DNA of 64,000 nucleotides from Alphaproteobacteria bacterium. GTDB lineage: Bacteria; Pseudomonadota; Alphaproteobacteria; MPNO01; UBA830. A program made the translations under genes and the position numbers. The notes below the pieces were generated by a model, which saw nothing but the letters and a program-made list of their open reading frames with translations, ran no database searches and was not told where the DNA came from. The stretch is taken from assembly GCA_964291215.2 (NCBI GenBank), contig OZ219791.1:832001-896000 (forward strand), given 5' to 3'. Numbering within the stretch: position 1 is the first letter of the stretch; each line of letters opens with the position of its first letter. Shown piece by piece: positions 14,171 through 39,383 of the stretch.

Positions 14171-14174
14171 GGGA

Positions 14175-14983: not shown

Positions 14984-15000
14984 GCGAAGGAGACCCCCTC

Positions 15001-15438: not shown

Positions 15439-15495
15439 CCACAGAAAAAATTACCGCGGACACCCGCAAAAACCTTGCCTGGAAACATGGATGCT

Positions 15496-15870
15496 CGGGA
15501 TGGTGCGATGCCATCATCGACCGCGCCAGCGACTTGTCCTCGTCGGCAACCGGAACCACGCCGATCTCGCCAAGACGGCACGACAGGTGCCTGTCGGGAT
15601 AATCCGGCGACGGGGCCAGGGACTCCGGGGTCACCGAGCCTCCGGCAGGCCGAGTGCGGCGGAGAACTTCGGAAGCGCGGTCGAGGCACAGTTCTCCCTT
15701 CGCGTTCCGCCAGTCCTCACGCTCGCAGAGCTCACGTGCCAGGAAGGTCCGCGTGCAATCCCCGGCGCCAAGCCGTGCCTTCAGCCAGTCAACCGTCTCG
15801 CCGCCATAATGTCGCAGGCCGATTCTCATGGAACCGTATATACGGCGTCAGTTGCTTCGAGTATACAGTG
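15496..15870 (-). mobile_element. 5' fragment of a DUF4338-IS4-type element, target of IS110 copy 1
   Basis: MRIGLRHYGGETVDWL..LARELCEREDWRNAKGELCL..MMASHHPE, homologous to the 17789 ORF start. Confidence 0.75.
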
Positions 15871-17818
15871 TTCGGTTGAAAGGATGTGGACGGCGGTGAC
15901 GGCGTCGAAGGCGAGGCACTTCTTCAGATCGTCGGCCCTGTTGAGCCGGCGGTTTTTGATCCGGGTCCCGGTCTTCAGCGTGCGGAACTAGGTCTCGATG
16001 CTCCATCGCGTCCGGTACCAGCGCAGGACGGTCGCCGCGTGCACGGCCTCCGCTTGCGCCGGGCGCTCAGCAGCAGCAGCGCCTCGTCGCCGTCATCGGT
16101 CTTGCTGGCCGAGACCGCGAACATGGACACAGGTTCCGCGTCGCCCTCGCGTTGCGGCGGCGCCACCTCGACCTGTGCCGTGCGGATCTCGAGATGGACA
16201 ACGCGCTTCTTGCGGGCGCACGGGCCGGCGGCGGCCGGGATCGTCAGCTCCGTCACCGCCACGGGCCGCCGGGCCGCGACATGCTCCCACAGGCACTCCT
16301 CGTTGCCGTTGGGCGTCCGCACGCGCTGTCTCGCCGAGCGGCTCGCCCGCACCAGCAGCGCAGCCCCGGTGTCCACGGCATGGGCGAGCAGCTCCCGGAA
16401 GTCGCCCTCGCGGTCGCAGACCGAGACCACCCGCGTGTCCGGGCAGGCCGTCGCGAGCTCTCGTGCCCGCTCGAGACCGGCGACCCGGCGCCGGCTGTCC
16501 TCCCCGGGCTCCTGCCGGAAGGCCGCGTCCATCGTGAACAGGCCCAGGGGCCGGCCCTCCGGCGTCACCGCCAGACCGGCATGGGCGAGAATGTCGACGC
16601 TCCCCTTGTCGCCCCCGCCGATCCCGTCAGGACCCTTCGTCGACCCCGGGCCGCTGTAGTCGAGTGCCGTCGTGTCCTGTATCGCAAGGACAAGAGGCCC
16701 TGTCCGACAACGCTCGACTCGACATGCGCCTCCAGAACGTGCTCCATGGAGACCCTCGGGTTCGACAACAACCGGCAGGCGGCCTTCTGCTCCGCCTTCT
16801 CCGAAAAGATGACCGGCAGGTCCTCCCCCATGTTCTCCATCCAGGCCCGGCCCATGTCAACGATGCGCCGCCGCATTCGCCCGTCGGTATGGCGCGTGCG
16901 CCCGTACTCCCGCTCCGCCCAGTCCGCGTCAGTGCCGTCATAGGCGCCCGCCAAGGCGCCGAGTGGACGTCGCTGTGTCCCGTGGAGCGCCGCCCGCCAG
17001 CCGCTCTCCAGCGCCAGGACCCGCACCGTGCGAACCTCGCCGCGGCGCCCGCTGGTCCGCCCGGCCACGGTCCAGCCGGCGCAGTGGTAGCAGTAACCGC
17101 TGTGCTCCCACCGGACGCACCGCATAACGGGCCTCCCAGTCGTCGGCGATGCGCTCCGTCGCCATGCGCAGGACCCGGGAGGCCAGCCCGTAGACCCGGA
17201 CGCCGGGAAGCAGGAGAAACCGATGATGGCAGATCACGCGCCTGATGTTGGCGGCGCGGGCGTCGGCAGACCATCCGATCCACTTGTCCCGCGCCCGCAG
17301 CTGCCAGGTCGCGGACCCGAAGCCGATCCCGCCGAGCGTGCCGTGGTGCTGCGAGCGGACCCAGTAGCGCATCTGGCCGCCGGGCGAGCGCGCCCATCCC
17401 AGCGGGTGGTGCGTCGCCATCATCGCCTCCCAGAGCCGGCGATCGTCGGTGCCGCCCACCAGTTCGAGCGAGACCGGGCCGAGATCCTGCAGCAGGCAGG
17501 CGAGCTTGGTGTCGGGCACGTCATCGGACGGGACGGCGGGCACGACGGTCGGATCGGGGGTGCTCCGCGGCGGCGGAAGCTCGAGACCCACGCGCTCGGC
17601 GAGCGCCGGCAGCACCTTCGCTGCCGCCGACAGGCACGGACGACCAAGCGCGTTGCGCCAGCCGGTGCGCTCGCAAAGCTCGCGAGCCAAATCGTGACGG
17701 GTGGCGGCGGCGGAGCGCAACGCGCCAGCGAACCAGTCAAGTGTCTGTGAATCGAAATGGCGGAGACCGACCTGCATGCCCGCAAGCATGCACGAAACGA
17801 ATTACCTATACAAATCTG
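15871..17818 (-). mobile_element. IS4-family (IS50/Tn5-like) element with N-terminal DUF4338 domain, degraded, 3'-truncated
   Basis: HHPLGWARSPGGQMRYW..RARDKWIGW..RFLLLPGVRVYGLAS; AEREYGR..DGR; VVSVCDREGDF; FRTLKTG. Confidence 0.85.
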
Positions 17819-19299
17819 GTAACTGTTCACCCCCTGGTTCCGGCTTGATGTCGGGGTAGAGTAACGAACGGGTTTACGTGGAGATTTGACATTGCAGGCC
17901 GATTCGCTTAGTGGTGGTCATCGAGAACGACGGGGACCGCCAGTGGGCTACTTTGGATCGAAGGCGACGAGCGGGCTGTGCCAGCTGCTTCCGGGGCTCC
18001 AGCCCCCGCATGATCTGTATGTGGAAACGCATCTCGGAGGCGGCGTGCTGATGAAGCGCAAGGCCGGGTGATGGCGACGGGCGGCGCGCGAGGAGTTCGA
18101 AGCGGCCAAGACCGCGGCGCTGCCGGCAAGGTGGCGGAAGAGGCCGTCATCCGCGTCTTCGTCATCCTGCTCGACATCCTCATCGTCGTCCTTCTGGAGA
18201 AGACCACGCACGAGCCGGAACTCCGGTCTGCCGCCGTCACAGACGGACAAGAGCGTGCCGGGAGCAACGGCCCGAAGCCGAACCAGCAGATGGGCGACAA
18301 CCTGCGCAAGATCATCGTCGAGGAGACGGTCGCGGCCTGCGACGCCTGCGGCGCCGACGGCCCCGTCGATCGGGAGCGCCGCACGACATCGTGTTCGAGG
18401 TCGTCGAGCGTCGACGCCGAGGAATGCCCGAAGTGCAAGGCCCGGGGCCGGTTCCCCGACAACATCCCGTGCAGTACGGCATCCAGGCCCTCGTCATCAA
18501 CCTGCTGGTCGCCCAGATGCTGTCCCTGCGCCGTGCCGTTGCGTTCGTGCAGGCGATCTCTGGCATCAAGCTCTCCGAGGCCTCGGCTATGCTTTCACGA
18601 TGTGTCATGGGAGGAAGCCGCCGTGGCGCACCTCCTGCAACGCCCGATGTCGATGATTTCGGATCAACAGTAAGTGGCTCCATGTCGTGGGGCCCTGACG
18701 TGCAAGTTCCCGCACCGCAAGCGCGGGCAAGAGATCGGCCCGTGCTACAAGGGCGTCCTGGGCCTCGTATATGGCAGTGTAGCCACCAGCTGTGCGGTAG
18801 CCACCAGCTGCGCGAACTGACCTTTGTCGTCGAGGCTACCGCGCGACTGATGAAGGGCCTGCTCCGCGAGGTCTGCCACAAGGTCAACAAGAGCGCATCC
18901 AAGACCCTGAACGACGCCGGGCGCAAGCGCTACCGCACCATCAGGGCGCCAAGGAACTGCCCGACATCCCGACGAAAGGAAAACGTGGACGCAAGTCCGA
19001 CGCGCACAACCTGCACGAACGTCTCGTGAAACACGAAAACCTGCGCTTCATAGACAACCCCGACGTCAGCTTCACCAACAATGCCGGAGAACAGAAGATC
19101 AGGATGGCAAAGGTCAAGGTGTCCGGATGCTTCCGCTCCACGCAAAAGCATGGTGCCGGGGCTCAAGCTACCTCACCTCCATGGCCGCACTCGGCTACAA
19201 CCCACTCGTCGCCACCCAGATCGCCCTCGACGGAAAAGCCGCAGACATCATCAACGAGCACTATGGCCAATCAGAACCCAACAAGGGGTTAGTAGATAC
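17819..19299 (+). mobile_element. IS66-family MTase-bearing element, deleted derivative
   Basis: TIRs GTAACTGTTCACCCC / GGGGTTAGTAGATAC; 8-bp TSD CAAATCTG. Confidence 0.93.
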
Positions 19300-19319
19300 C
19301 AAATCTGATACTTTGAAAG

Positions 19320-20060
19320 GGTCCTGACCCGCGGAGCCCCGGGGCTGTTTGCCCGGCTGCGCGCCTGCCGGGGCACCCTGCAGATCGACATTCCCCGCCT
19401 GACGTCCCGGCCGAAGTCCTCGGGGCGGAAGAAGCAGCCCGGCCGCACGCTGCGCCGGAACGCGGTACTCGAATTGCGCTGGTCACGCTGCCGGCGACTG
19501 CCAACTACCCCGATGCCGCGCCCGTGACCGCGCTGCATCTCCTCGAGACGGACCCGCCGACCGGGGAGTTCCCGGTGGAATGGTTCCTGCTGACCGACCT
19601 TCCGGTGGACCACGCGGCGCGGGAGACCGTCGGCTGGTATGCGCTGCGCTGGCGGATGCTGGTTCCGGGTGCTGAAGTCCGGTTGCCGGGCGGAACACCT
19701 GGCGACGCGCAAGGCCTGCCGGCTGGAACGGCAGATCACGATCCACGCCGTGATCGCCTGGCGTCTTTTCGGGCGGGACGTTCCGACGATCGAGCCCGAC
19801 TGCCTGTTCTCTGACCTGGAACTCCGCTTCCTCTCCGACTATGCCCGCCGATACCGGCTGGACCCACACTCGGGGCGGCGGTGACACTGGTGGCGATCCT
19901 CGGCGGATATCTGAACCGCAAGCATGATCCGCTACCGGGCGACCAGACGATGTGGCTATCCGCGACTGGCCACCGCCACGCTGGCCTATGAATGCCTGCT
20001 TGAGGCTCTCGGCCTGGATCCGACATCGGAAGGATACAATCAAGCTCTGCGCAATTTATG
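19320..20060 (+). pseudogene. IS4-family transposase C-terminal remnant
   Basis: PVEWFLLTDLP, WYALRWR, FRVLKSGCRAE, LGGYLNRKHDPLPG. Confidence 0.8.
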
Positions 20061-21261
20061 CCCTCGTTCCATAGTGAAGTGCAACACATGATGGGTTGTG
20101 GTCATGTGTTTTTAGACGCATGATGTTGCGGAGCGGTAGCGGCGAGAGTTTCTGTGCAAGATGAAGGGAGCTTGTTCATGTCCAAAGGCTACCGTCACCT
20201 ACGAAGAGCGATGCCAGATTGAGGCGTTACAGAAAAGGGGTCTTTCACAAGGTGCGATTGCTCGGCAGCTGGGCCGATCAACAATTTTCCGGGAGATCAA
20301 GCGCAACACCGGGGGACGGGGTTACCGTCACAAGCAGGCGCAAAGGATGGCAGAAACGCGCCGCAGGGCCGCCTCGTCTGTTTCCTGGCGGTTGACGCCT
20401 CGGGTTGAGGCTCAGAAAAAGCTGCGGGAGGGCCCCGAGCAGCGGCCGTTTTCGACTGGAGGGCCGTGGGTCGGCAACGGATCCATGATCGCCGAAGATC
20501 GGAGAGCCGGGGGCGTCTTGTGGAAGAAGCTTCGGCGGCGCGGCAAGAAGCCGAACTGGAAGGGTGGATGCCATTCCGGCCGGGTGGACATTTCCGAGCG
20601 CCCTGCGGAGGCAAAGGAACGGGTTGGCGACCGGGAGCCATCATCGGCAAAGCTCACAGTGGAGCTGTCGTGTCGATCGTGCCACGAAATACGCCTTGCT
20701 GGGTGGACAGAAAGACACGGTTGGTATGATCCGCCTGCTCGGCTCTGGTGCGCTATTGGTCCACACAATCACAACGGCAAGGAGTTCGCAGACCACAGGC
20801 GTGTCGCTGAAGCATTTGACGCAGATTTCTTCTTCGCCTTTCCATTCTTGAGAGCGCGGCTTGAATGAGCACACCAACGGCCTGGTGCGGGAGTACTTCC
20901 CGAAGGGCACGGACTTTCGCGCGACATGCAACGAAGATGTTCAGAAGGTGCAGGATCGGCTCAACACTCGGAAAGTCCCGGGATCGCCGACGGAGGTAAT
21001 CTTGAAGTGAAACCGCCCTGACCATCTGCGTTCCGAAGCCGCAACGTGCAGCAGGGTCCATGCCGCGCGACGGCGAAATAGTGGCTTGAAGCCGACAAAG
21101 GCGTTGCATAAGCTTGATGTTGAAGGAACTGAAGCTGTTCCTAGGCGGAATCGAGAGTGGCAGAGGGGGAAAATTTGTGCAACATCCGGCCCTCATCGCA
21201 GTGAGGGCGTAGCCCGAACGGAGATGAGGGCCGGATGTTGCACTTCAGACTGGAAGTGGGG
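20061..21261 (+). mobile_element. IS30-family element, degraded (copy 1)
   Basis: TIR cores TGAAGTGCAACA / TGTTGCACTTCA; ERCQIEAL..IARQLGRSTIFREIKRN, NGKEFA, NEHTNGLVREYFPKGTDF. Confidence 0.9.
21177..21243. repeat. 21-bp perfect inverted repeat with 25-nt loop at IS30 right end
   Basis: GTGCAACATCCGGCCCTCATC-N25-GATGAGGGCCGGATGTTGCAC. Confidence 0.9.
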
Positions 21262-21395
21262 ATATATAAAAGCTGACGGTGCTTTCGCTACGCGTGGTGT
21301 CGGACGGAGCGACGTTCTTCGAGGGTGTCGACCCGAGATGGCGGATCGCGCTTGGGAGGACTTCATGACCGAGATCGGGACATAAGGGCCGGACG

Positions 21396-22181
21396 ATGCG
21401 CATTGGGGTGATCGGATATGGTTTTATCGGGCGCTCCATCGTGGAACGGATCGATGGCAGCGGCGGGCTGTTCGAGACTGCCTTCGTCTACAATCGAAGC
21501 GCCGATGCCCTGGTCGGGCTAGATCCCGCGCTCCGGCTCGACGACCTTGGCGGAGCGCGCGAACATCGTCCCTCGCTGATCCTTGAATGCGCCCATCCGT
21601 CCTTTACCGCCCGCTTCGGTGCGGAATTTCTGGAATTCGCCGACTACATGCCACTCTCGGTCACAGCGCTCGCCGATGACGGGCTCAGGACCCGGCTTGA
21701 AGAAGCGGCGAACGCGCATGGCACGCGGTTGTTCGTACCGAGCGGCGCACTCCTCGGCGGAGACGAGCTGTTGTCGCGGTCCGGGCAGTGGCAACGGGTT
21801 AGGATTACCTTCCGTAAGCACCCCGACAATATCGACTTCGCCGACAGCGGCGTGGATCCGGCGACGATCGACGGCGAGACGGTGATCTACGAGGGCTCGG
21901 TCCGCGGTGTCGCGCGACTTTACCCGCGCAATGTCAACACCATGGTGACTTGTGCGCTGGTTGCGACCGGCCTCGATGAATGCGAGGCGCGCCTGGTTTG
22001 TGATCCCGGGCTCGATTGCGCGGTAGCCGAGGTCGAGGCCTGGGACCACCAGGGCGGTATGTTCCGCACCGAGAAACGCCAGCCCGCCGTCGGCGTCTCC
22101 GGCACCGAAATGGTGCATTCCATCTGGTATTCCATCTTGCGCATGAGCGGCAGCCGGAGTCATGCGATAGAGTTGGTGTAA
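21396..22181 (+). CDS. Aspartate dehydrogenase-like (NadX/DUF108) oxidoreductase
   Basis: GYGFIG Rossmann motif, ECAHP, PSGALLG, FRKHP, YPRNVN. Confidence 0.8.
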   Translation: MRIGVIGYGFIGRSIVERIDGSGGLFETAFVYNRSADALVGLDPALRLDDLGGAREHRPSLILECAHPSFTARFGAEFLEFADYMPLSVTALADDGLRTRLEEAANAHGTRLFVPSGALLGGDELLSRSGQWQRVRITFRKHPDNIDFADSGVDPATIDGETVIYEGSVRGVARLYPRNVNTMVTCALVATGLDECEARLVCDPGLDCAVAEVEAWDHQGGMFRTEKRQPAVGVSGTEMVHSIWYSILRMSGSRSHAIELV

Positions 22182-22227
22182 CGGTATGCTTGGAGTCGAA
22201 AAATCGAAACCGATAATGGAGGATATT

Positions 22228-23208
22228 ATGTCCATGCTGAAATCGTGGTCCGTGGTGGCCACCCTCGCCCTGGCTGCCCTGGTTCTGTTATCTCAACCCG
22301 GATCGGCCGCGGACAAGAAGGTCGCGATCGCGAACCTCGGTCCCCATTCCGTCCTCAAGCTGGTGATCGACGGCTTCAAGGCGGGCTTGGAGAGCGGCGG
22401 CTTCAAGGAAGGGGCGGGGGTCGAGTACATTTACAAGGATGCGAATTTCGATCCGGCACTGGTAGCACAGGTGCTGACTGCGCTGGAGGCGTCCGATCCC
22501 GATCTGTTGTTGACCATCACGACACCCATCACCCAGGCGTCCAAGCGGGTGATCCGCAACAAGTCGCTGCCGATCGTTTTCGCGCCCGTCACCGATCCGG
22601 TGGACGCGGGGCTGGTTAAATCCTGGGACAAAGGGAGCGCGCGTTTCGTCGGCGCCTCCAATCTTCAGGACATGGATACGGTCATCGCGAAGGCCAAGAC
22701 GATCCTGGGCAAGGTGTCGACGATGGGGCTCCTGTTCAATCCGGGCGACGCGAACGACCGGGTGAACGTCAAATACGCCGAAGCCGCGGCGAAGAAGGCC
22801 GGCGTGAAACTCAGGACGGTCAGCGTGGAGACGGTCAACGATATTCCGAGCCGGGTGGCGGGGCTGAAGGGGGTGGACTTCATCTACCTAATCCCGTCGA
22901 GCATGCTGCAGCCCTCTGTCGCGGTCATTGCCGCATCGGCCAAGCGCAACAGGATACCGGTGATCAACGCCAGCCCCGGCGGCGTGAAGGACGGGCATGT
23001 TCTGGCGGCGGTCTCGGTCTCGTGGCGGGATGTCGGCTTTCAGGCCGGATTGCTTGGCGCGAAGATTCTGAAGGGAGCCAAGCTGTCCGATCTACCGATC
23101 TTCAGGCCCAAGCCGAAGGATCACCGCGTGCTTCTGAGCGGCAAACGGTTCGGCGAGATGAAATTGCCGATACCGGCCGCGCTCAAGGACTGCAAATGCG
23201 TGATGTGA
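22228..23208 (+). CDS. ABC transporter substrate-binding protein (ABC_sub_bind / TrpX-like)
   Basis: Signal peptide; TITTP, PIVFAPVTDPVDAGLV; RBS GGAGG at 22218. Confidence 0.85.
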   Translation: MSMLKSWSVVATLALAALVLLSQPGSAADKKVAIANLGPHSVLKLVIDGFKAGLESGGFKEGAGVEYIYKDANFDPALVAQVLTALEASDPDLLLTITTPITQASKRVIRNKSLPIVFAPVTDPVDAGLVKSWDKGSARFVGASNLQDMDTVIAKAKTILGKVSTMGLLFNPGDANDRVNVKYAEAAAKKAGVKLRTVSVETVNDIPSRVAGLKGVDFIYLIPSSMLQPSVAVIAASAKRNRIPVINASPGGVKDGHVLAAVSVSWRDVGFQAGLLGAKILKGAKLSDLPIFRPKPKDHRVLLSGKRFGEMKLPIPAALKDCKCVM

Positions 23209-24008: not shown

Positions 24009-24016
24009 GCGCCGCG

Positions 24017-25199: not shown

Positions 25200-25626
25200 G
25201 TTGTCGGCATGTCTCGTGTTGTTCCCGATCAGGTGCAACCGCTCAAACCGTTCCTCGCGGCGCCAGCCAATTCAATGGTCCCGCGGCGCACAGCTGAAGG
25301 CGCCCGTCTGCCAGCCCGCAGCGCCAATCCACCGTCCGCGCCAGGTGAACACGTAGCGCAGACCTCGACCGGCAAACTGCTTGAAACCAAGATAGTGATG
25401 ACGGTCAACCACACGGTTCCAGCGACACACCTCATCGGGTCGCGCAAGGCCCACAACCACATCCCGGAGCGTAAAACTCTCCGGCGTCGCCTCGAACAAA
25501 CCCGTTCACTGTCCCTCTATCACAACACCGGATGTCACGGCGCTTCACAAAAAGTCAACGAAAATGCGAATCATCCGGAACAAGCGGAACCAATCCTTCC
25601 AATAAACCCAGCGTGGGATAGTTTTG
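25200..25626 (-). mobile_element. 5' fragment of a DUF4338-ISAs1-type element
   Basis: TIR CAGCGTGGGATAGTTTTG ending at 25626; HHYLGFKQFAGRGLRY..PRDH..IGNNTR. Confidence 0.75.
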
Positions 25627-26101
25627 CCGCTGTCGCAAGGTGATCCCATGCTTGTTGATGTGATGTGATCGGAGTCCTGATCGCGGCGCGGGTTGACGCG
25701 TTCGAGGCTGCGATTTTGAGATTTGCTGACGCGCTGTTGCGGCGCGGGGTGCGATTGGTCGACCTATCCGGGGCGAGCGAGAGGCCTTGGTTGCCGGGCT
25801 CGAAAGCTTGCGGTTTCTGTCGGGGAGAGAGGCGCGGTCAGCCTGGTCTCGTGATTGCGTGCAGGACCTGCTTGCGCTTGTCCGCATGGTTGTGTCGACG
25901 AAGCTGTTGAAGGGTTTGGTCAGCTTGCGCTTGTTGTGGATGATGACGGCGATTGCGAGGGTGATCGCGTTGTTTGCGAACGCGTTCGGAGCATGGAGTC
26001 GTCTTCGCGGAAGGTGGCATCGCGGACATGATGATGGCTCTCGACTACCCAGTGTCCGCGATTCCATGCGAGCAACTGTTGCGGCGAGGCGCGTTCGACC
26101 G

Positions 26102-27457
26102 AGCATCCATGTTTCTTGGCAAGGTTTTTGCGGGTGTCTGTGGTGATGTTTTCTGTGGTTGTCCACAAGCGGTATGGGATTTGCTCTGCGATCGAGGCGA
26201 CATGAAGCTTGTGGTCCCGGCGGCGGGTTGCCGTCCATTGGTCACGTGAACGCGGCTACCTTGCCGTCCCCGGGCACGTGACCGTCCGGGTTCCAGGTGT
26301 CCCAAGGCGGTTCGATCTCCTTGATGTCGACCTCGACGATGATCTGCAGACATTCTCCCCAAGTCGTGTCGTAGAGGGAGACTGTCGATACAGTCCCGAT
26401 CGCGCTCTCGGCAGGGGTGAGGGCCATGAGGGTGGTCTCCTTCGCTCACTCACCGGTGCTTCAGGCAACGCTGCTGTCGCAGCAAGGTGTTCGCCAGAGC
26501 TTGCGCATCACGGCGACAATCGCGACCTTGCTTGCCGGCAGTCTTGAGGCGCTCGAACACGCTTGCCAGGTCCGCGTTGAAGCGGGCCGGTTGCGGCCAG
26601 GAGATCGCGTGGCCTTCGGCGCCCGCCACGGATGTGCCGAGCACCGTGGTCGTTGGCGCCACCCCGATCAAGGCTGCCGACGCTGCCGAGTTCGGGCATC
26701 CAGAAGGGCCGCGGCGGTCACCGGACCGGGGTCAGGATGACGTAGCTCTGCTCGGGATCACCGGCGATCACCGCTTTGATCGCCGCGCCGGCAATGCGGT
26801 CATCGAGATCGGCCGCTAAGGCCCTTGTGACGGTCTCGCCATCCACCTCATCTGCCACCTGCTTGGCGTCGACAAGCGCGGCACCAGGAGATCCTCCAGG
26901 CTCTTGAGGAAGGCGGAGCCACAGGCTCACCGTGCCGATCTTGGCGTCGAAGCGGTTGGCCCATCGCCTCGGCGAAGCGCCCGCAACGGGTTGACGAGAA
27001 TAACCTCGAAGCCCCGGTCATGAAGACACTGGTGAACCTTGCGGTGATAGCGGCCTGTCGCCCACCACCCGGCTCACCCCGAGGCCGCGAAGCCACCTGC
27101 CCGTGGCGTCGTCCGCAAAACAATGCGCCAGATGTCCAGACTGGCTGACCCCTGCTACTACCTTGACCATCGTCCCTTGCTCCTCGCCTTACGATGGGTT
27201 CAAACCCAAGCATCCATTCAGGACGCGAGGGACGTCAAGGGAGGTTGGCCGACCACACTCGGTCGCGGCTCTGTCAAGGTCGAAATGGCAACCTCCGCGG
27301 AGATCGTTTGATCTCCGCTCCCCTGTGCGTGTTCGCTCAGGGAAGCGGAATCTCTCTGCAACCATAAACCGGACGCTCTCCCACAGATCCACATTTCCCC
27401 GCCCCCAACTGCTGTGGATGATTTCATCATCAAGGGGACAAAACCTGGTCATATAAG
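26102..27457 (-). mobile_element. IS110 element copy 2
   Basis: CT core at both junctions; homologous to 13873-15495. Confidence 0.9.
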
Positions 27458-27526
27458 GTCATGGCGTGTTCGGTTTTCCGGATTTCTTGAATTCGACGTG
27501 CCGAGTGACGCGGAAGATCTGCTTGA

Positions 27527-28752
27527 CTAGTAGTCCACCGGCATTGTATTGATGGTTTTTGGTGGGTAGTATTCCTGTGTCGGCATCCGTTGGAATCTGG
27601 ACAGTGTCGATATCCACACGGGCAAGATGCCGAACAGGCAGGCAGCCGCAGCCCCATGTGCAGGTCCGGACAACGGGAGCGGCGCAATGACAGGAGCAAC
27701 GTATATGGCCAACTCTCGGGGCAGGAAGCTCTACCGGGTGACCCTTTCAGCGCAGGAGCGCCGGGATCTGAAGGCGATTGTCGACGGCACCGGGGCTGCC
27801 TGGCGTCGGCGCCGGGCACAAATCCTGATGCTGAGGGGGCGCTTGTCGATGCCGACATTGCGCAAGGGCTGGGCACGGCGACGATTGAGCGCTTGCGCAA
27901 GCGCTGCGTCCTGGAGGGGCTGGACGCCGCCCTCAGCCGCAAGGAGCAGGTGAACCGTCGGCCGAAACGGCTGGACGGGGCGATGGAGGCGAAGCTGGTC
28001 TCGTCCCCGCCCGAGGGCTGTGGACGCTGAAGCTGCTCGCCAGCCGTCTGGTGGAGATCGTCGAGCGCATTTCGGAAGAGACGGTCAGGAAGACGCTAAA
28101 AAAAAGAGATCAAGCCGTGGCTGAACTGGTGCATTCCACCGCACCGGAGCGCACAGTTCGTGGCGGCGGACGTGCTTGACATTTATCAGCGGGACTTTGC
28201 CAGGGACGAGGTGCTGAGACCAGCCGGCAGCAGACGAAGGAAACCCGCATCCCTCGTCCCCCGGTCAGCCGGAGGTGGTCGACCATGAATATGAGCGCAA
28301 CGGCACGGCCAACCTCTTCATGGCCTTTGCGCCCAACGAGAACTGGCGCACGGTGAAAGTCACCGACCGCCGCGGGACTGGGCACACTTCATCCGGGAGC
28401 TTGCCGACGACCATTTCCCCGACAGGAAGATCGTGCTGGTCAATTTGAACACGCACAGTCACTGTATGAAGCCTTCGAGCCCGAGGAGGCGGGTGCGAAA
28501 GCGGTTCGAGTTTCGCTATACGCCGAAGCACGGAAGCTGGCTCAACATGGCCGAAATCGAGATCGGTGCGCTGTCGCGGCAGTGCCTTCGGCGACGCATT
28601 CCCGACCGCGACAGCATGCTGCGGGAGACCGTGGCGTGGGTCGAGCGCCGCAATGCGGCCGATGTCACTGTCGACTGGCGTTTCACGACGAAGGATGCCC
28701 GGACGAAACTGAAGTCACTATATCCATCAATATAATAATGCTAGACTACTAG
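27527..28752 (+). mobile_element. IS630-family element copy 2
   Basis: Inserted at CTAG of GCTTGACTAGTTGATC (empty site visible at ~37742). Confidence 0.92.
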
Positions 28753-30120
28753 TTGATCATCTTCGCCAGCGGGCTGAAGATGGTGCGCTGGCGGCCATGG
28801 GCGGGCTTTTCGCTGTAGCGTCCCGTGCTCGCGGTCTTCCAGTTGATGCTCTCGAAGGTGCGTTGCCCTTGACCATCAGTCCGCGCGATGGGTCTCGATG
28901 ATCAGCCTCGCGGGTGGTGTGGAGCGCGTCGAGGGTGAGCAGACGGCCGGCAACCGGTGCCGTCTCGAGCGCGGCGTGGACGGCAGCGATCTCCCCGTCG
29001 TGATAGTTGAAGATCGAATACCGGCCAGCGAGACCGTCTCGTAATGATCCTCGCCGGTGCGGCCGCGCTTGCCGTCGACCGCGTTGCCGACCTGCGGCTG
29101 CGCGCCGCATCCTCGATCCATCCCGGGTCGGTGTTCTGCAGCACCCGGTGCACGGTCGATCTGGAGACCGGCTTGTCCCTGTTCTTCCATGCTGCTCCAG
29201 CTCCTTCTGCGTCGTAGTGCGCCGCCGCAACCGCACCGTGCCGGTTCGCAAGCCAGCAAAATCACGCACAGCACCGAGGCGATGCGGTGCCCCTGCGCGC
29301 GCCGGAAAGCGCCGCTGATAAATCGAGCGCAACTCCTGCGCCGACCAGCGGCGCCCGCAACTCCCACGCCACAGGAAGCGGCGAACGATCCCGCGTCACG
29401 ACGCAACGGAAACACGTAAAGATCCTTCGCCTCCCCGGTCGGCGCCCGCTGGCGCGCGCATGGCCCCTGCCAACGCACTCCCGGTTCGCCGCCTTGTACA
29501 TGGTGCCGCTGAACTTCGTCGGCGAAACAAACGACTCCGCAACAAGTAACGGATGGCCGTACGCAGCCTCCCAGTCGCCACCGAGACGCCGCACCATCCG
29601 CGACAACGCAAACGAGGCAAGGCCCGGAAACGACCACCAGGAACAACAAACCTCGTGTTGTTCCCGGCAACCGCCTGAACTGTTCCTCGCGGCGCCAGCC
29701 AATCCAACGGGTGCGCAGCTGAGGGCGCCCGTCTGCCAGCCCGCAGCACCAATCCACCGCCCGCGCCAGGTGAACACGTAGCGCAGATCCCGACCGGCAA
29801 ACTGCTTGAAACCAAGGATGACGGTCAACGACACGATTCCAGCGACATCAGGCCGCGCAAGGCGCACAACCACATCCCGGAGCACAAAACCCTCTGGAGT
29901 CGTCTCAAAAAAATCCGCTGCCTCCACGACAACGGATACTACGCCGCTTCACAAAAAGTCAGCGAAAATGCGAATCATCCTGAACAAGCAAAACCGACCC
30001 TTCCAACAAACCTGGCGTGGGATCGCCGTGCCGCCGTCGTCATGGAGGTTGCGCGCCATGGCCCGCTGCGGCATGGTGTGCAGATTCACCCCTCTGTCGG
30101 CAGAATTGGGCGTTCAGGCC

Positions 30121-30645
30121 ATGAAGTCCGTCGATCTGAAAGAGCACATCAGGACGATACCGGACTTCCCCAAGCCCGGAATACTCTTCTATGACATCTC
30201 GACGCTGCTTCGCCACCCGGGTGCCTGGCGAGCGGCTGTCCGCGACCTGTCGCGGGTGGTCGGAGCAGATACCCCCGACATGCTCGCCGGTATCGAGGCG
30301 CGTGGCTTTCTCGTCGCCGGGGCGGTCGCTGTTGATCTCGGCGTCGGACTCGCCATGGTGCGCAAGACCGGCAAGTTGCCCGGCGCGACGCTGTCCCACA
30401 GCTACGAGCTCGAATACCGGGTCGACTCGGTGGAAATCCAGACAGATGCCGTGGAATCCGGCCGGAGCGTCGTTGTCGTCGACGACGTGCTGGCCACCGG
30501 CGGCACTGCGGCGGCGGCCATCGAATTGTTGCGCCGCGCCGGCGCTCGTGTCGTGGCGGCCGCCTTCGTCATCGAACTCGGTTTTCTCGACGGCCGCGAC
30601 TATCTCGACATCCCCGTGGTCTCGCTCGTCCGGTACGATCGGTAG
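30121..30645 (+). CDS. apt: Adenine phosphoribosyltransferase
   Basis: IRTIPDFPKPGILFYDI, GIEARGF, RKTGKLPG, VVDDVLATGGT. Confidence 0.96.
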   Translation: MKSVDLKEHIRTIPDFPKPGILFYDISTLLRHPGAWRAAVRDLSRVVGADTPDMLAGIEARGFLVAGAVAVDLGVGLAMVRKTGKLPGATLSHSYELEYRVDSVEIQTDAVESGRSVVVVDDVLATGGTAAAAIELLRRAGARVVAAAFVIELGFLDGRDYLDIPVVSLVRYDR

Positions 30646-30747
30646 CCAGCCACGCTACGGCCCGGGACGTGCACGACTACCGGGCTCACCTGCCATGCGG
30701 ATCTCGATGGAGGCGTGTTTTACCCGTGGCGGCGGAAGGCGGCCCCT

Positions 30748-32349: not shown

Positions 32350-32459
32350 GTCGCCTGTTCCGTTGATGGAGTGTTCCGTTGGGAAGCGCCAGCATACATC
32401 AATTGCCGGCTCGCTTCGATGTCCATAACCGCACGTGTCGGGTTCGGTCCGAGGGATGC

Positions 32460-32720
32460 GCGACAAATTTGTGCACGCCCTGCGATTTCAGGCTGCCCTT
32501 CGCTCCCGGAAGTCGTCCAATCTGTTGCTGTGGACGGAGCAGCGCAGAGCGATAAGGGCATTGGCGCCGTCGAGGCTCCAGTGCATGTCGCCGTGTTTCA
32601 TGTGACCTCCGATCACGGACTTGCAGGCGCCCTCGACGACGCCTGTTGAGATGCACAGGTTCTGTTCTCGGAACCGGGGATAGCCCATGCGCGCCCGGTT
32701 TGTCTTGAAGTAGGCCATGT
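32460..32720 (-). pseudogene. ISKra4/UPF0236-like transposase C-terminal remnant
   Basis: YFKTNRARMGYPRFREQNLCISTGVVEGACKSVIG..MHWSLDGANALIALR. Confidence 0.75.
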
Positions 32721-32904
32721 GTAACTGCTCACCCCTTGGTTCTGGCTTGATGTTGGAGTAGAGCAACGAACGGGTTTTCGTGGAGATTTTACACTGTAGA
32801 TGGATTCGTTAGTGGTGGTCATCGAGAGCGACGGAGACCGTCGGTGGGCTACTTTGGATCCAAGGCGACGAGCGGGCTGTGCCAGCTGCTTCTGGGGCTC
32901 GGGT
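32721..32904 (+). mobile_element. IS66-family left-end fragment including the MTase start
   Basis: GTAACTGCTCACCCC; GYFGSKATSGLCQLL. Confidence 0.85.
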
Positions 32905-34600
32905 CAGAACTTTCCCACGCTGCATTCAATTTTGCTGTCTTCTGCTGTCCGGAGGTTTCACAGCGTGCCGGGTTTTCTGGTTTCGGGGCCGTCCGCAGTC
33001 GTCGCCGGCGGCGTTATCGGCGCGTGGGCGGGTTGTTTTCGGGATGTGGGCGGCGTCCGGGAATCGGCCGGACACCATTGGCGCTCAGGGCTGCGGCGGC
33101 TTCTCGGCGGTCGAGCCGCCGCCGTGTTTCGGCGAGGCTCTCGCGTCGGTTGGCGAAGATCACCGCGAGCGCGATGTTGTCGAGGCTGGCGCGGTTTGCG
33201 GGTCAGGCAGGCGTCCTCGCCGAAGACGCAGTCTCGGTGGTTCATGTTTTCCACGGCCCGCGGCCGCAGCAGTTCCTCTGGCGACGCGTGTTGCGCATCG
33301 AGCTGATGTACCGGTGTAGTCGTTGCCGCTCGCTGCGCCGCTGGCGCTCTTTCCCGGCGGCTCGCGGTAGCATGCGGGCGATCTGCCGGGGTAGTTGATC
33401 AGGCCCTCAAGCGGCACGCGCTGCTCGAGGCGGGCCTTGCCTCCTTGAAGCGGCCATCCGTCTCCCGGTCGATGCCGTCGAAGGTTTCGGGCGCCCTTGA
33501 CCGGGAAGACGTGGTCTGCGCCGCAGCGCCGGGTGATCAGCGTCGTGTGCAGCGCGGGTGATCACCTTGCCGCGGACATCGGTGCGCTCGAGGAGGTGGC
33601 CGCCAGCTCGCCGTCGTCGAAGTTCAACAGCGCGAAGGGTGCGCCGGAGCCGTGAGGGCCACGGTCTCGTGGTGGCCGCCGCGGATGCGCTTGCCGTCGG
33701 CGGCAAGCGCCCGGGCGAGCCGGCGGCCGAGCACATCCTCGAGCGCCTCGGGATCAATCGACCGGATGACCCGGTGGAGGATCGCCCCGGAGGGCGGCTC
33801 GCGCAGCTCCGTCCTCGGGTTCCGCCGATGGCCTCGAGCTCGTCCCCGGACAGCGGCCGCGCAAACTGCGCAGCTGCCTTTCATGTTCGCAAGCTCGGCG
33901 AGAACGTGAGCACACCGTGTGCTTTCTGCGCGGCGGAAGTCCTCGATCGCCGCCAGCTCGTCGTGCAGCGAACGCATCACTTCGGAACCCCGGGGAGGAG
34001 GAGGTAGGCGGCGCCCGGCAGCGCCTGCGGACGCGACAGCAGCCGTCGCGCCGCACAACGAAAATCTCCTTGCCATGGGGGTCGGTGCAACGCCCGTTGG
34101 CGCGGGCAAACCCCCTGGCACGCCAGCCCGCCGCCTTGTGCCCGCAAAACTCGCAGGATCGCAGAACGTCTCCGCCACCTGGTGGCCGCAGGCCCAGTCG
34201 TCGGCCAGCCGCCGCGTCGCAAGAAAGAAGGAGGCAAGGTTCGGAAACGTTCCCGGCGCCGCAAGCAGTCGCGTGTTGTCAGATCAAGCCACTGCTGCTC
34301 CGGCTTCCAGCCACCGGTCGCGGCACTTGAAGGCCCCGGCCAGACCACTGCCCCCTGAAGGACGCAATATGGCGCAGCCCCGCCAGACGGCGAAACCCGA
34401 GATAGTCGTCCATCAACGCAGCGGACGCTCCTCGGGCTTCGCGAACCTCGGACAGACCCTTCTGGAGCTGCGACGTGAATCGGACAGGACGCGATGTGCT
34501 TGTGAACCGACATCCCCGCACCATGACAACTCCAGTGCAGGAAAACCAGCGAAAACTGCAAAAAAATCTCTCACACCAACCCGCGCCCCCGCAAAACCCA
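32905..34600 (-). mobile_element. ISAs1-family DUF4338 element, second subfamily, heavily deleted
   Basis: TIR CAGAACTTTCCCACGCTG; MDDYLGFRRLAG, AETFCDPASFAGT, ALAADGKRIRG, ENMNHRDCVFGEDAC. Confidence 0.8.
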
Positions 34601-35060
34601 CAAGGTGATCCCATGCTTGTTGATGTGATGTGATCGGAGTCCTGATCGTGGCGCGGGTCGACGCGTTCGAGGCTGCGATTTTGAGATTTGCTGACGCGCT
34701 GTTACGGCGCGGGGTGCGATTGGTCGGCGTATCCGGGGCGAGCGAGAGGCCTTGGTTGCCGGGCTCGAAAGCTTGCAGTTTCTGTCGGGGAGAGAGGCTC
34801 GATCAGCCTGGTCTTGTGATTGCGTGCAGGACCTGCTTGCGCTTGTCGACATAGTGGTGTCGACGAAGCTGTTGAAGGGTTTGGGCAGCTTGCGTTTGTT
34901 GCGGATGATGATTGCGAGGGTGATCGCGTTGTTTGCGGGCGCGTTCGGAGCATGGAGTCGTCTTCGCGGAAGGTGGCATCGCGGACATGATGATGGCTCT
35001 CGACTACCCAGTGTCCGCGATTCCATGCGAGCAACTGTTGTGGCGAGGCGCGCTCGACCG

Positions 35061-37671
35061 AGCATCCATGTTTCTTGGCAAGGTTTTTGCGGGTGTCTGT
35101 GGTGATGTTTTCTGTGGTTGTCCACAAGCGGTGTGGGGTTTGCTCTGCGAGCGAGGCGACATGAAGCTTGTGGTCCCGGCGGCGGGTTGCCGTCCATTGG
35201 TCACGTGAACGCGGCTACCTTGCCGTCCCCGGGCACGTGACCGTCCGGGTTCCAGGTGTCCCAAGGCGGTTCGATCTCCTTGATGTCGACCTCGACGATG
35301 ATCTGCAGACATTCTCCCCAAGTCGTGTCGTAGAGGGAGACTGTCGATACAGTCCCGATCGCGCTCTCGGCAGGGCCGTGTCTCCTTCACTCACTCACCG
35401 GTGCTTCAGGCAACGCTGCTGTCGCAGCAAGGTGTTCGCCAGAGCTTGCGCATCACGGCGACAATCGCGACTTTGTGGGCCTTGCCGGCAGTCTTGAGGC
35501 GCACCAGGTCCGCGTTGAAGCGTGCCGGTTGCGGCCAGGAGATCGCGTGGCCTTCGGCGCCCGCCACGGATGTGCCGAGCACCGTGGTCGTTGGCGCCAC
35601 CCCGATCAAGGCTGCCGACGCTGCCGAGTTCGGGCATCCAGAAGGGCCGCGGCGGTCACCGGACCGGGGATCGAGGTCAGGATGGCATACCTCTGCTCGG
35701 GATCACCGGCGATCACCGCTTTGATCGCCGCGCCGGCAATGCGATCATTGAGATCGGCCGCCGAGGCCCTTGTGACGGTCTCGCCATCCACCTCATCTGC
35801 CACCTGCTTGGCGTCGACAAGCGCGCCACCAGGAGATCCTCCAGGCTCTTGAGGAAGGCGGAGCCACAGGCTCAAGATCGCCCAGCCGATCTTGGCGTCG
35901 ACGCGGTTGGCCCATCGCCTCGGCGAAGCCCGCAACGGGTTGACGAGAATAACCTCGAAGCCCCGGTCATGAAGACACTGGTGAACCTTGCGGTGATAGC
36001 GGCCTGTCGCCCACCACCCGGCTCACCCCGAGGCCGCGAAGCCACTTGCCCGCCAGCTCGTGGCGTCGTTCGCAAAACAATGCGCCAGATGTCCAGACTG
36101 GCCTTGCTGACCCCTGCTACTATCTTGACCATCGTCCCTTGCTCCTCGCCTTACGATGATACGGGTTCAAACCCAAGCATCCAGCGAGGGACGTCAAGGG
36201 AGGTTGGCCGATCACACTCGGTCGCGGCTCTGTCAAGGCCAAGGTCAAAACGGCAACCTCCGCGGAGATCGTTTGATCCCCGCTCCCCTGTGCGTGTTCG
36301 CTCAGGGGAGCGGAATCTCTCTGCAACCATAGCTCTCCCACAGATCCACATTTTCCCGCCCCCAAATGCTGTGGATGATTTCATCATCAAGGGGACAAAA
36401 CCTAGTAGTCTAACATTATTGGATTGACGAATATAGTGACTTCAGTTTCGTCCGGGCATCCTTCGTCGTGAAACGCCAGTCGACAGTGACATCGGCCGCA
36501 TTGCGGCGCTCGACCCACGCCACGGTCTCCCGCAGCATGGTGTCGCGGTCGGGAATGCGTCGCCGAAGGCATTGCCGCGACAGCGCGCCGATCTCGATCT
36601 CGGCCATGTTGAGCCAGCTTCCGTGCTTCGGCGTGTAGCGAAACTCGAACCGCTTTCGCACCCGCCTTCTCGGGCTCGAAGGCTTCATACAGCGACTGTG
36701 CGTGTTCAGATTGTCCAGCACGATCTTTCTGTCGGGGAAATGGTCGTCGGCAAGCTCCCGGATGAAGTGCGCCCAGTCCCGCGGCGGTCGGTGACTTTCA
36801 CCGTGCGCCAGTTCTCGTTGGGCGCAAAGGCCATGAAGAGGTTGGCCGTGCCGTTGCGCTCATATTCATAGTCGACCACCTCCGGCTGACCGGGGGATAC
36901 GGGTTTCCTGCTGCCGGCTGGTCTCGCACACCAGCACCTCGTCCTTGGCAAAGTCCCGCTGATAAGTGTCAAGCACATCCTCCATCGCCGCTACGAACTG
37001 TGCGCTCCGGTGCGGTGGAATGCACCAGTTCAGCCACGGCTTGATCTCTTTTTTTAGCGTCTTCCTGACCGTCTCTTCCGAAATGCGCTCGACGATCTCC
37101 ACCAGACGGCCGGCGAGCAGCTTCAGCGGGCACAGCCCTCGGGCGGGGATGAGCAGGCTAGGGCGACCAGCTTCGCTTCCATCGCCCCGTCCAGCCGTTT
37201 CGGCCGACGGTTCACCTGCTCCTTGCGGCTGAGGGCGGCGTCCAGCCCCTCCAGAACGCAGCGCTTGCGCAAACGCTCGACCGTCGCCGTGCCGATGCCC
37301 AGCCCTTGCGCAATGTCGGCATCGACAAGCCGAGCGCCCCCTCGTCAGCCAGCATCAGGATTTGTGCCCGGCGCCGACGCCAGGCAGCCCCGGTGCCGTC
37401 GACAATCGCCTTCAGATCCCGGCGCTCCTGCGCCGAAAGGGTCACGCGGTAGAGCTTCCTGCCCCGAGAGTTGGCCATATGCGCTGCTCCTGTCATTGCG
37501 CCGAAGACCTGCGGGCATGCCCGTTGTCCGGACCTGCGCATGGGGCTGCCTGCCTGTTCGGCATCTGCCCGTGTGGATATCGGCACTGTCCGGATTCCAA
37601 CGAACGCCGACACGGAAATACTACCCACCAAAACCATCAATACAATGCCGGTGGACTACTAGTCATATAAG
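35061..37671 (-). mobile_element. IS110 element copy 3, with IS630 inserted near its left end
   Basis: CT cores at 35061-2 and 37670-1; same ISAs1 site as copy 2. Confidence 0.9.
36402..37662 (-). mobile_element. IS630-family element copy 3
   Basis: CTAGTAGTC...GACTACTAG ends; homologous to copies 1 and 2. Confidence 0.92.
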
Positions 37672-39383
37672 GTCATGGCGTGTTCGGTTGTCCGTTTTCC
37701 GGATTTCCTGAATTCGACGCGCCGAGTGACGCGGAAGATCTGCTTGACTAGTTGATCATCTTCGCCAGCGGGGTGAAGACCTCGATGGTGCGCTGGCGGC
37801 CATGCGCGGGCTTTTCGTTGTAGCGCTGGCGGTCTTCCAGTTGATGCTCTCTCAAAGGTTTCAGGCGCGTTGCCCTTGACCATCATCATCCAGTCCGCGC
37901 GATGGGTCTCGACGATCAGCCGCGCGGTCTCGCGGGTGGTATGGAGCGCGTCGAGGGTGAGCAGACGGCCGGCAACCGGTGCCGTCTCAAGCGCGGCGTG
38001 GACGGCAGCGATCTCCCCGTCGTGATAGTTGAGGATCGAATACCGGCCAGCGAGACCGTCTCGTAATGATCCTCGCCGGTGCGGCCGCGGATGCGCTTGC
38101 CGTCGACCGCGTTGCCGACCTCCAGGCGCGGCTGCGCGCCGCATCCTCGATCCATCCCGGGTCGGTGTTCTGCAGCACCCGGTGCACGGTGGAGACCGGC
38201 TTGTCCCTGTTCTTCCATGCTGCTCCAGCTCCTTCTGCGTCGTAGTGCGCCGCCGCAACCGCACCGTGCCGGTTCGCAAGCCGCGCCATCACGCACAGCA
38301 CCGAGGCGATGCCCCTGCGCGCGCCGGAAAGCGCCGCTGATAAATCGAGCGGAACTCCTGCGCCGACCAGCGGCGCCCGCAACTCCCACGCCACAGGAAG
38401 CGGCGAACGATCCCGCAGCCGACGTCACGACGCAGCGGAAACACGTAAAGATCCTTCGCCTCCCCGGTCGGTATAGCGCCCGCTGGCGCGCGCATAGCTC
38501 CTGCCAACGCACTCCCAGTTCGCCGCCTTGTACATGGTGCCGCTGAACTTCGTCGGCAAGACAAACGACTCCGCAACAAGCAACGGATGGCCGTACGCAG
38601 CCTCCCGGTCGCCGCCGCACCATCCGCGACAACGCAAACGAGGTTCGGAAACACCCGGCGACCACCAGGAACAACAAACCTCGTGTTGTTCCCGGCAACC
38701 GCCTGAACTGTTCCTCGCGGCGCCAGCCAATCCAACGGGTGCGCAGCTGAGGGCGCCCGTCTGCCAGCCCGCAGCGCCAATCCACCGCCCGCGCCAGGTG
38801 AACACGCAGACCTCGACCGGCAAACTGCTTGAAACCAAGATACGGTCAACCACACGGTTCCAGCGGCACTAGGCCGCGCAAGGCGCACAACCACATTCCG
38901 GAGCGCAAAACCTTCCGGAGTCGTCTCAAAAAAATCCGCTGCCCCCACGACAACGGATACTACGCCGCTTCACAAAAAGCCAGCTAAAATGCGAATCATC
39001 CTGAACAAGCGAAACCGACCCTTCCAACAAACCTAGCGTGGGATCACCGTGGCAAAACCCAAGTGCTGCCTTGAAAAACAAACAGAATTTAGCGTAAGAT
39101 CACCCTGCCCTCCACCTCCTGCAAGCGCAGCTCCTCACAGCGACCCTCCGCAGCCTCGGCTCGAATACGCTTGCGATCGTACAGGGACTTCCGGGTGGCC
39201 GAATCATGACACGACGACTGCGGCATGTCGCCAGCGGCGTCCGCACCCGATGATGACACGAAATCCTCGATGCACATGACCATGCACGACCTGATAGTAC
39301 CGCCAAAAAAATTTACCAGTCTCCTTCTCCGAATCACCAAAATGAACCTCGGCGCAGATCGTCATCACCGCACGAACGAACGC

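What the first reader, a model, noticed from the sequence alone, without database searches (positions are those of the whole stretch)
15496..39051. DUF4338 (DruA/Mom-like) domain at the N-terminus of both ISAs1 and IS4 transposases
Seen: HHYLG..LRY..G..GW..RD.WIGW..NNTRF..ESFV.P..F.GT.YKAANW..VG motifs precede ISAs1 DDE motifs (29400-29900, 34100-34420, 38450-38900, 56600-57050, fragment at 25200-25500). A related domain precedes IS4 motifs (16940-17790, 15500-15830). From my recall of the families, this matches DUF4338, the Druantia DruA domain, and resembles the GNAT-like Mom DNA-modification family. Inference: with the IS66 MTase, three unrelated IS families here carry a putative DNA-modifying module upstream of the transposase, a convergent anti-restriction or self-marking strategy.
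Basis: partly seen in the sequence, partly recalled or inferred. Interest (0 to 1): 0.7.

Follow-up and report, generated by a model that had tools for sequence, protein, structure and literature searches.

The report
Jumping genes carrying Mom-like enzyme domain
Broken copies of two unrelated kinds of jumping gene in this window descend from transposases fused to an extra domain whose predicted fold is closest to the DNA-modifying enzyme Mom of phage Mu; the same domain rides on at least five transposase families and likely marks DNA chemically, a role nobody has tested.

Summary
Real, with corrections. All six DUF4338-bearing pieces in the window are decayed copies. Intact in-frame fusions lie elsewhere in this genome: Pfam DruA (PF14236/DUF4338) + ISAs1 transposase (two families) and + Tn5-type IS4 transposase. 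The same domain is a separate gene inside IS66 elements and is fused to IS630, IS701 and other IS4 transposases. The predicted fold is a GNAT whose top solved match is Mu Mom (8bv8, Z 14.8 against 12.5 for the next). Counterparts of Mom's H58, R111 and S124 are nearly invariant; Mom's essential HTH insertion and R151 are missing. It is not Druantia DruA proper. It is one module swapped between IS families, not convergence. Anti-restriction is unsupported: 2 of 72,556 plasmids and 0 of 50,697 phages match. Best reading: a likely adenine-acylating accessory enzyme that marks element DNA; activity untested. I found no paper on the fusion in ten searches, though three relevant papers were not held. 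This scan reported the same fusion before in other genomes.

The parts
15888..17817 (-). Decayed Tn5-type IS4 element (family A): helical N-terminal domain + DUF4338/GNAT + Tnp_DNA_bind + DDE, frameshifted, 3' end missing
   Evidence: intact-frame relative G405/L168 is 50% (N-terminal part) and 49% (DDE part) identical
17109..17477 (-). Pfam DruA (PF14236) match, first two thirds of the Mom-like GNAT domain; frame lost near 17100
   Evidence: E 3.7e-25
16751..16924 (-). Tn5-type transposase DNA-binding domain (PF14706), in another frame
   Evidence: E 1.5e-7
15978..16856 (-). IS4 DDE catalytic region remnant
   Evidence: NF033590 E 7.9e-29 (below the whole-protein cut-off, fragment)
15496..15882 (-). 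5' fragment of a second IS4-type element (family D): helical domain, linker and first GNAT residues; truncated by another repeat
25213..25626 (-). 5' fragment of an ISAs1 family-B copy with intact HHYLG...LRY...IGW...NNTR; truncated
   Evidence: 90.6% to P0002 residues 6-101
25636..30030 (-). ISAs1 family-B element, both 16-bp imperfect terminal repeats present, split by nested insertions; DUF4338 region about 29370-29880
32900..34600 (-). ISAs1 family-C element body (its left end lies at 39052-39101); DUF4338 region about 34050-34460; 55 small deletions
34601..39051 (-). ISAs1 family-B element inserted into the left end of the family-C element, perfect 10-bp target duplication, split by nested insertions; DUF4338 region about 38400-38900
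39052..39101 (-). Left end of the family-C element
56461..61169 (+). ISAs1 family-B element with both terminal repeats and an 8-bp target duplication, split by nested insertions; DUF4338 region about 56610-57100
40155..40811 (-).

Best explanation
These are decayed copies of insertion sequences whose intact transposases begin with a DUF4338 domain predicted to be a Mom-type GNAT, which likely transfers an acyl or aminoacyl group to adenines in DNA near the element and so would mark the element's own DNA. Shown: the in-frame fusions, the place of the separate gene inside IS66 ends, purifying selection, and spread over at least five transposase families. Predicted: the GNAT fold and the match of active-site residues to Mom. 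Inferred: catalysis on DNA, the donor (Gly-tRNA in Mom), and action in cis, because the domain is the first part translated of a fused transposase or is translationally coupled to it. The mark would tune end recognition or protect transposition intermediates, much as Dam methylation controls IS10 and IS50 (recalled). An N-terminal three-helix domain (IS4, IS66 versions) or the transposase itself (ISAs1) would replace Mom's DNA-binding insertion. The window's own copies are dead.
For: Fusions: P0001 and P0002 (DruA + PF13808 + PF01609; NF033564 over cut-off) and P0123 (DruA + PF14706 + PF01609 + PF02281; NF033590 over cut-off). Homologs: 118 of 120 listed and 119 of 120 listed carry the same domain pair. 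Fold: model pLDDT 92.6; Foldseek rank 1-2 is 8bv8, E 1.3e-7 against 9.7e-6 for the next entry; VIA Z 14.8, rmsd 3.3, 166 aligned, against Z 12.5; Mom is also the top GNAT for the ISAs1 model. Sequence links: PHROG 1384 'Mom-like' E 5e-6; two fusions pass the Pfam Mom cut-off; Atlas neighbours are Mom clusters at 0.87-0.90 (a lead only). Residues in 150 cluster representatives: H58 147, Y59 134, R111 150, S124 146, D149 as D/E 142, Y159 145. R111 is Mom-specific among GNATs (PMC7261163, passage). dN/dS is 0.12-0.29 in 28 pairs of the IS66-borne gene. The domains are basic like Mom.
Against: No activity data exist. Mom's HTH-like insertion (175-209, essential), W181 and R151 have no counterpart. 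In all 120 Tn5-type hits near P0123, Y59 is Pro and Y159 is Leu/Phe/Met, and the window's IS4 also has H-P. The R111 match was set by eye from spacing and strand position; MAFFT did not align it. Profile-profile support covers only the C-terminal motif (hhalign probability 71%), and a profile search of PDB sequences did not find Mom. The Z margin over protein and small-molecule GNATs is only 2.3. The Mom paper warns that GNAT substrates cannot be read from structure. Most ISAs1 transposases lack the domain (2 of 228 plasmid records match over 80% of the fusion), so it is not needed for transposition in general.
Confidence: 0.42

Rival explanations
1. Anti-restriction cargo: the enzyme modifies DNA broadly in the donor cell so that the element and its vehicle survive restriction in a new host.
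For: This is Mom's own role (PMC13219725 abstract). Near-identical elements occur in different genomes (98% protein identity) and close relatives in several phyla (names). An IS66 in the window carries a likely adenine methyltransferase.
Against: The module matches 2 of 72,556 plasmid records and 0 of 50,697 phage records, although these collections lean to cultured hosts. A fused, presumably scarce transposase is a poor way to modify a whole replicon (inference). Mom overexpression is toxic.
Confidence: 0.15
2. A protein- or tRNA-directed acyltransferase that regulates the transposase or a host factor, or acts as a mild toxin that keeps the element.
For: Ranks 2-50 of the fold search are protein and small-molecule acetyltransferases at Z 10.6-12.5. 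Rakesh et al. read DUF4338 fused to DndF as a possible protein-targeting GNAT co-effector (PMC10853773, passages). Mom's DNA-binding insertion is absent.
Against: The Mom-specific Arg and the H-Y, S, D/E and Y set are kept. No antitoxin-like partner was looked for or seen.
Confidence: 0.2
3. A non-catalytic, repurposed binding or sensing domain, for example binding charged tRNA or DNA and so gating transposase activity, most likely in the H-P clade of Tn5-type fusions.
For: Two aromatic residues important in Mom are fixed as other residues in 120 of 120 hits of that clade. An invariant RDxxIGW insert absent from Mom could be a new binding surface.
Against: H, R and S stay invariant even in that clade. 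A separate gene under purifying selection in IS66 suits an enzyme better than a tethered sensor (inference).
Confidence: 0.13
4. Anti-phage defence cargo, a mobile relative of Druantia DruA that benefits the host.
For: Same Pfam family as DruA. DUF4338 occurs in Druantia and DndF-type systems.
Against: PADLOC DruA models give only E 1.7e-6 to 0.006 for 4 of 5 IS-borne proteins and no hit for the fifth, against 4.5e-80 to 1e-291 for true DruA loci. True DruA lacks the H-Y, R and S motifs by eye. The elements hold no other Dru gene.
Confidence: 0.07
5. A neutral passenger that was captured once and hitch-hikes.
For: All window copies are pseudogenes that kept spreading or being homogenised without it.
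Against: dN/dS is 0.12-0.29. Near-invariant residues run across 150 clusters at 50% identity. At least five families have recruited it.
Confidence: 0.03

Closest known systems
Phage Mu Mom (PDB 8bv8, Pfam PF25680; PMC13219725, PMC7261163)
   Same: GNAT fold, top structural match; counterparts of H58, Y59, R111, S124, D149, G156 and Y159 in the same order; basic surface composition.
   Different: 17-18% identity; no HTH-like insertion 175-209, no W181 or in-register R151; extra RDxxIGW insert; Y59 and Y159 changed in one Tn5-type clade; fused or coupled to a transposase rather than a late phage gene; activity unknown.
Druantia DruA and DndF-fused DUF4338 (Pfam PF14236; PADLOC PDLC00001/2; PMC10853773)
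   Same: Same Pfam family, described in print as a GNAT domain.
   Different: IS-borne proteins match only part of the Pfam model (about positions 45-230 of 297) and barely match PADLOC DruA models; true DruA lacks the Mom-type H-Y, R and S motifs and sits on a very long branch; no Druantia operon.
ISAs1 family (NF033564)
   Same: PF13808 + DDE domain, terminal repeats of about 16 bp, target duplications of 8-10 bp.
   Different: An extra N-terminal domain of about 200 aa (about 600 aa in all); most ISAs1 transposases lack it.
IS50/Tn5 group of IS4 (NF033590; PDB 1mus, 1muh)
   Same: Tnp_DNA_bind + DDE + Tn5 dimerisation domain.
   Different: About 300 extra N-terminal residues (helical domain, Pro-rich linker, GNAT); about 780 aa in all.
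IS elements with passenger genes, including methyltransferases (transporter IS; recalled, my two searches found no passage)
   Same: An accessory gene inside IS ends, as in the IS66 version.
   Different: Here the same module recurs in five or more families, mostly as a fusion, and is a GNAT, not a methyltransferase.

Membership tests
Pfam PF14236 (DruA/DUF4338) | Score over the curated cut-off (27 bits) | tested here: met
   89.1 bits for window 16941-17801, 73.7-83.9 bits for the three intact fusions
Druantia type I DruA | Strong match to DruA system models | tested here: not met
   E 1.7e-6 to 0.006 or no hit against 4.5e-80 to 1e-291 for true DruA
Druantia type I DruA | Operon with other Dru genes | tested here: not met
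   The domain lies inside IS ends with only a transposase; the genome was not searched for DruE
Mom family | GNAT fold closest to Mom | tested here: met
   Predicted models
Mom family | Pfam PF25680 over cut-off | tested here: inconclusive
   P0123 domain 14.2 bits, below 27.1; 2 of 48 relatives above it; no match in G000
Mom family | H58, Y59, R111, S124, D149, Y159 | tested here: met
   134-150 of 150 representatives per position; R111 placed by eye; Y59 and Y159 not kept in the P0123 clade
Mom family | R151 and the essential HTH-like insertion 175-209 | tested here: not met
   Gap of 26 columns and no conserved Arg in register
Mom family | Gly-tRNA-dependent N6-adenine modification of dsDNA | not testable with these tools
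   Needs expression and LC-MS
Mom family | Homodimer | not tested
   No complex prediction was run
ISAs1 | NF033564 over cut-off (70 bits) | tested here: met
   91 and 102.7 bits for the intact copies
ISAs1 | Terminal inverted repeats and target duplication | tested here: met
   Family B: 16-bp imperfect repeats, 8-10 bp duplications; family C ends not resolved
IS4, IS50/Tn5 group | PF14706 + DDE + PF02281, NF033590 over cut-off | tested here: met
   P0123 280 bits against 160; the window copy is a fragment with PF14706 and a partial NF033590 hit
IS4, IS50/Tn5 group | Terminal repeats and target duplication | tested here: inconclusive
   No convincing repeat for the single intact copy; the window copy lacks its 3' end

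The most novel reading that the evidence does not exclude
Insertion sequences of at least five families share a mobile, Mom-derived enzyme that uses charged tRNA to hypermodify adenines at their own ends: an epigenetic writer carried by transposons, which would tie transposition to the cell's translation state and add a chemical step to cut-and-paste transposition.
Probability: 0.25. Interest if true: 0.85.

Novelty: new variant of a known kind. Interest (0 to 1): 0.52.

Why it matters
Minimal insertion sequences are thought to need only a transposase. A selected accessory enzyme related to a DNA-hypermodifying phage protein, recruited by five or more IS families and spread over thousands of protein clusters, would be an unstudied layer of transposon control or defence evasion, and a source of new DNA-modifying enzymes. 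It is directly testable with the assays built for Mom. It also warns that Pfam 'DruA' hits often mark insertion sequences rather than Druantia: 14 of 18 hit genomes in a phylum sample held the IS-type domain and 5 a true DruA-type protein (one both).

Tried and rejected
Pfam on window ORFs: 26 of 31 gave nothing because of frameshifts. Sequence searches of PDB with P0124, A1 and A3 did not find Mom. hhalign of whole-protein alignments against Mom gave low probabilities, 22.5% and 1.3%; a global hhalign misaligned the N-terminal half. The N-terminal 100 residues were left unexplained: the Atlas gave unnamed clusters, and the fold search barely tested that part. The careful tree did not finish; only quick trees were used, and the DruA outgroup branch is too long to root on. 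Monophyly of the IS66-linked domains was not rejected (p-AU 0.06). P0376, labelled ISAs1 but nested among IS66 domains, may be a nested-insertion chimera; not checked. The comparison of domain and transposase conservation (64% against 54% in ISAs1, 71% against 69% in IS4) is biased because hits were chosen on the domain, so I do not rely on it. An assembly artefact as the cause of the deletions was rejected. No RNA holder was listed. Pfam hits to DUF6312 and Pertus-S5-tox at E 0.1 or worse are below cut-off and treated as chance. Literature: ten searches found no paper on the fusion. Iyer 2009 and Iyer 2013 were not held and Kaminska 2008 was not tried; these could mention Mom-like domains in transposons. 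Supplements were not read. One fetched paper was unrelated.
Full report
Setting. The window is G000:C2:832001-896000 of a 6.15-Mb, two-contig genome, 99.3% complete. Much of 10-61 kb is nested, multi-copy mobile DNA. I did not determine the organism; the nearest named loci are mostly alphaproteobacterial MAGs.

Observation. The cited motifs are present but broken. The IS4-type element at 17817-15888 (-) gives Pfam DruA at E 3.7e-25, then Tnp_DNA_bind and an IS4 catalytic region in other frames. The ISAs1-type pieces belong to two families. Family B has three elements with both terminal repeats (30030-25636, 39051-34601, 56461-61169; target duplications of 8-10 bp, the first imperfect) and a 5' fragment at 25626-25213. 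Family C lies at 34600-32900, with its left end at 39101-39052, split off by a family-B insertion. Against intact copies, the long window copies carry 33-55 small deletions each. These are real: contigs of three public runs (one study, possibly including the source sample) cross deletion sites near 28780, 29103 and 29173 without gaps. The piece at 15882-15496 is only the 5' end of a second IS4-type family and no transposase follows it in the window.

Intact forms. The genome holds one intact copy among 51 family-B and one among 41 family-C matches of 600 bp or more. P0002 and P0001 read DruA + DDE_Tnp_1_assoc + DDE in one frame and pass the ISAs1 model. P0123 (772 aa), from a different IS4 family, reads DruA + Tnp_DNA_bind + DDE + Tn5 dimerisation domain. 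For the window's own IS4 family, G405 holds a single frame with DruA + Tnp_DNA_bind + DDE, 50% and 49% identical to the two window pieces. In the protein collection, 118 of the 120 listed (of 549) hits to the P0002 domain carry PF14236 with PF13808, and 119 of 120 (of 1242) hits to the P0123 domain carry it with PF14706. Both searches were limited to lengths near the query.

Spread. The same domain is a separate 290-aa gene (P0124) in IS66 elements of this genome. In 76 of 79 related loci, which come from far fewer genomes, it overlaps the stop of a tnpC-type ORF (L027 confirmed as IS66, the rest judged by the same C-terminus). It lies inside the ends of a 3,208-bp element with perfect terminal repeats, 8-bp duplications and identical copies. 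In L108, L110 and L126 it lies upstream of tnpC instead. A profile of 21 domains matched 10,673 clusters at 50% identity (2,125 at E 1e-30). I scanned 48 of the best 150 (those of 355 aa or more, less two already known): 22 ISAs1, 13 Tn5-type, 3 IS66, 2 other IS4, 1 IS630, 1 IS701, 6 with DruA only. In a phylum sample 19 of 301 genomes matched PF14236; of the 18 besides G000, 14 held the IS-type domain (a transposase shown in the locus for 8) and 5 a true DruA-type protein, one both.

History. Quick trees of the domain sort by partner: 27 of 28 ISAs1 rows form one branch (SH-aLRT 99), the 19 Tn5-type rows one side of a branch (95) when DruA is left out, and IS66 rows fall in three places, though one IS66 clade is not rejected (p-AU 0.06). 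This is one module moved between element families at least five times, not independent invention. The root and direction are unknown. The IS66-borne gene has dN/dS 0.12-0.29 over 28 pairs from 8 loci, against 0.19-0.39 for the end of tnpC.

Fold and residues. The model of P0123 1-290 (pLDDT 92.6) has a three-helix N-terminal domain with a short hairpin, a linker and a GNAT. Mu Mom 8bv8 ranks first by Foldseek (E 1.3e-7) and by VIA-align (Z 14.8, rmsd 3.3, 166 residues; next Z 12.5). For the whole ISAs1 model, Tn5 transposase ranks first and Mom is the top GNAT. The Mom paper (PMC13219725; abstract, structure section, discussion and passages read) names R111, S124, R151 and the HTH-like insertion as essential and H58, Y59, W48, D149, Y159 and W181 as important; it does not mention transposases, DruA or DUF4338. 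MAFFT puts H58-Y59 on HHY, S124 on LAS, D149 on ETFVD and G156/Y159 on GxxY. R111 it misplaced; I assign it by eye to the Arg of NNTRF, which lies in the equivalent strand 14-15 residues before the Ser (13 in Mom). Counts in 150 representatives are H 147, Y 134, R 150, S 146, D/E 142, G 150, Y 145. PMC7261163 (passages) states that this Arg is conserved in Mom homologs but not across GNATs. Against membership: the HTH insertion, W181 and R151 are missing, and the clade around P0123 has Pro for Y59 and Leu/Phe/Met for Y159 in 120 of 120 hits.

DruA. PMC10853773 (passages) already calls DUF4338 a GNAT, in DndF fusions. PADLOC DruA models hit the IS-borne proteins at E 1.7e-6 or worse, against 4.5e-80 to 1e-291 for true DruA loci, and those lack the H-Y, R and S motifs by eye. 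The IS clade is therefore closer to Mom in its active site than DruA is.

The methyltransferase. An open ORF at 40811-40155 with a DPPY motif precedes an IS66 tnpC remnant and has 43 tblastn matches in the genome, several identical. Profile support is weak. It is unrelated to DUF4338, but it suggests that IS elements here do carry likely adenine-modifying passengers.

Mechanism. I commit to a Mom-type adenine-acylating enzyme acting near its own element (0.42). The steps from fold to catalysis, donor, substrate and purpose are all inferred. Anti-restriction in transit is weaker: P0124 matches 2 of 72,556 plasmid records and none of 50,697 phage records, and only 2 of 228 plasmid records with an ISAs1 match hold the fusion, with the caveat that these collections under-sample the hosts. 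A protein or tRNA target, or a non-catalytic role in the H-P clade, remain open.

Novelty. The architecture is visible in Pfam annotations and both parent families are known. Ten literature searches (listings only, except the papers named) found no description of the fusion or of a DUF4338-Mom link; Iyer 2009 and 2013 were not held and supplements were not read. PMC7824862, PMC4738411, PMC13463889 and PMC13639185 were seen as passages and say nothing on it. Seven earlier notes of this scan report the same fusion in other genomes; they are not independent support. Verdict: a real, selected, unstudied accessory module; this window shows only its ruins.

Noticed in passing
whole genome; window 28748-30030, 32900-34600, 37677-39044, 56461-57752: Multi-copy IS copies differ from the intact copy by only about 3-7% substitutions but mostly carry 10-63 small deletions with a size peak at 5-7 nt, little excess microhomology, many shared by 25-41 copies. 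Supported by run contigs. Other notes of this scan describe the same process in this genome.
   Followed up: partly
window 40155-40811 (-): Open DPPY-type methyltransferase ORF upstream of an IS66 tnpC; 43 matches in the genome, including several identical 234-aa frames of a related family, suggesting recent spread.
   Followed up: partly
L003, L004 (G000:C2:528386, C1:780208); L027-L105: IS66 elements with a separate DUF4338 gene coupled to the tnpC stop; a third family carrying the module in this same genome.
   Followed up: yes
window 25636, 30030, 34601, 39051, 56461, 61169: Both terminal repeats of ISAs1 family B contain GATC, reminiscent of Dam control of IS10/IS50 ends (recalled); could be chance.
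   Followed up: no
window 25626-25636 and 34601-39101: Family-B elements inserted twice at or just inside the left end of another DUF4338-ISAs1 element, hinting at a target preference.
   Followed up: no
window 11700-13900 (+): Eroded group II intron reverse transcriptase (YADD motif), about 65 copies in the genome.
   Followed up: no
window 44860-46100 and 13872-15498: Eroded IS256-like and IS110-like elements, about 60-100 copies each; names from motifs and, for IS256, a Pfam hit on a related copy.
   Followed up: no
window 19392-20042 (+): C-terminal part of a further Tn5-type transposase, 34% to P0123 residues 532-761.
   Followed up: no
P0436: Protein with DruA + DDE_Tnp_1_assoc + D12 adenine methyltransferase; may be a nested-insertion chimera.
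   Followed up: no
L107 (G281:C1:2600364-2604227): True DruA-type gene directly beside a TniQ gene, suggesting a Tn7-like context.
   Followed up: no
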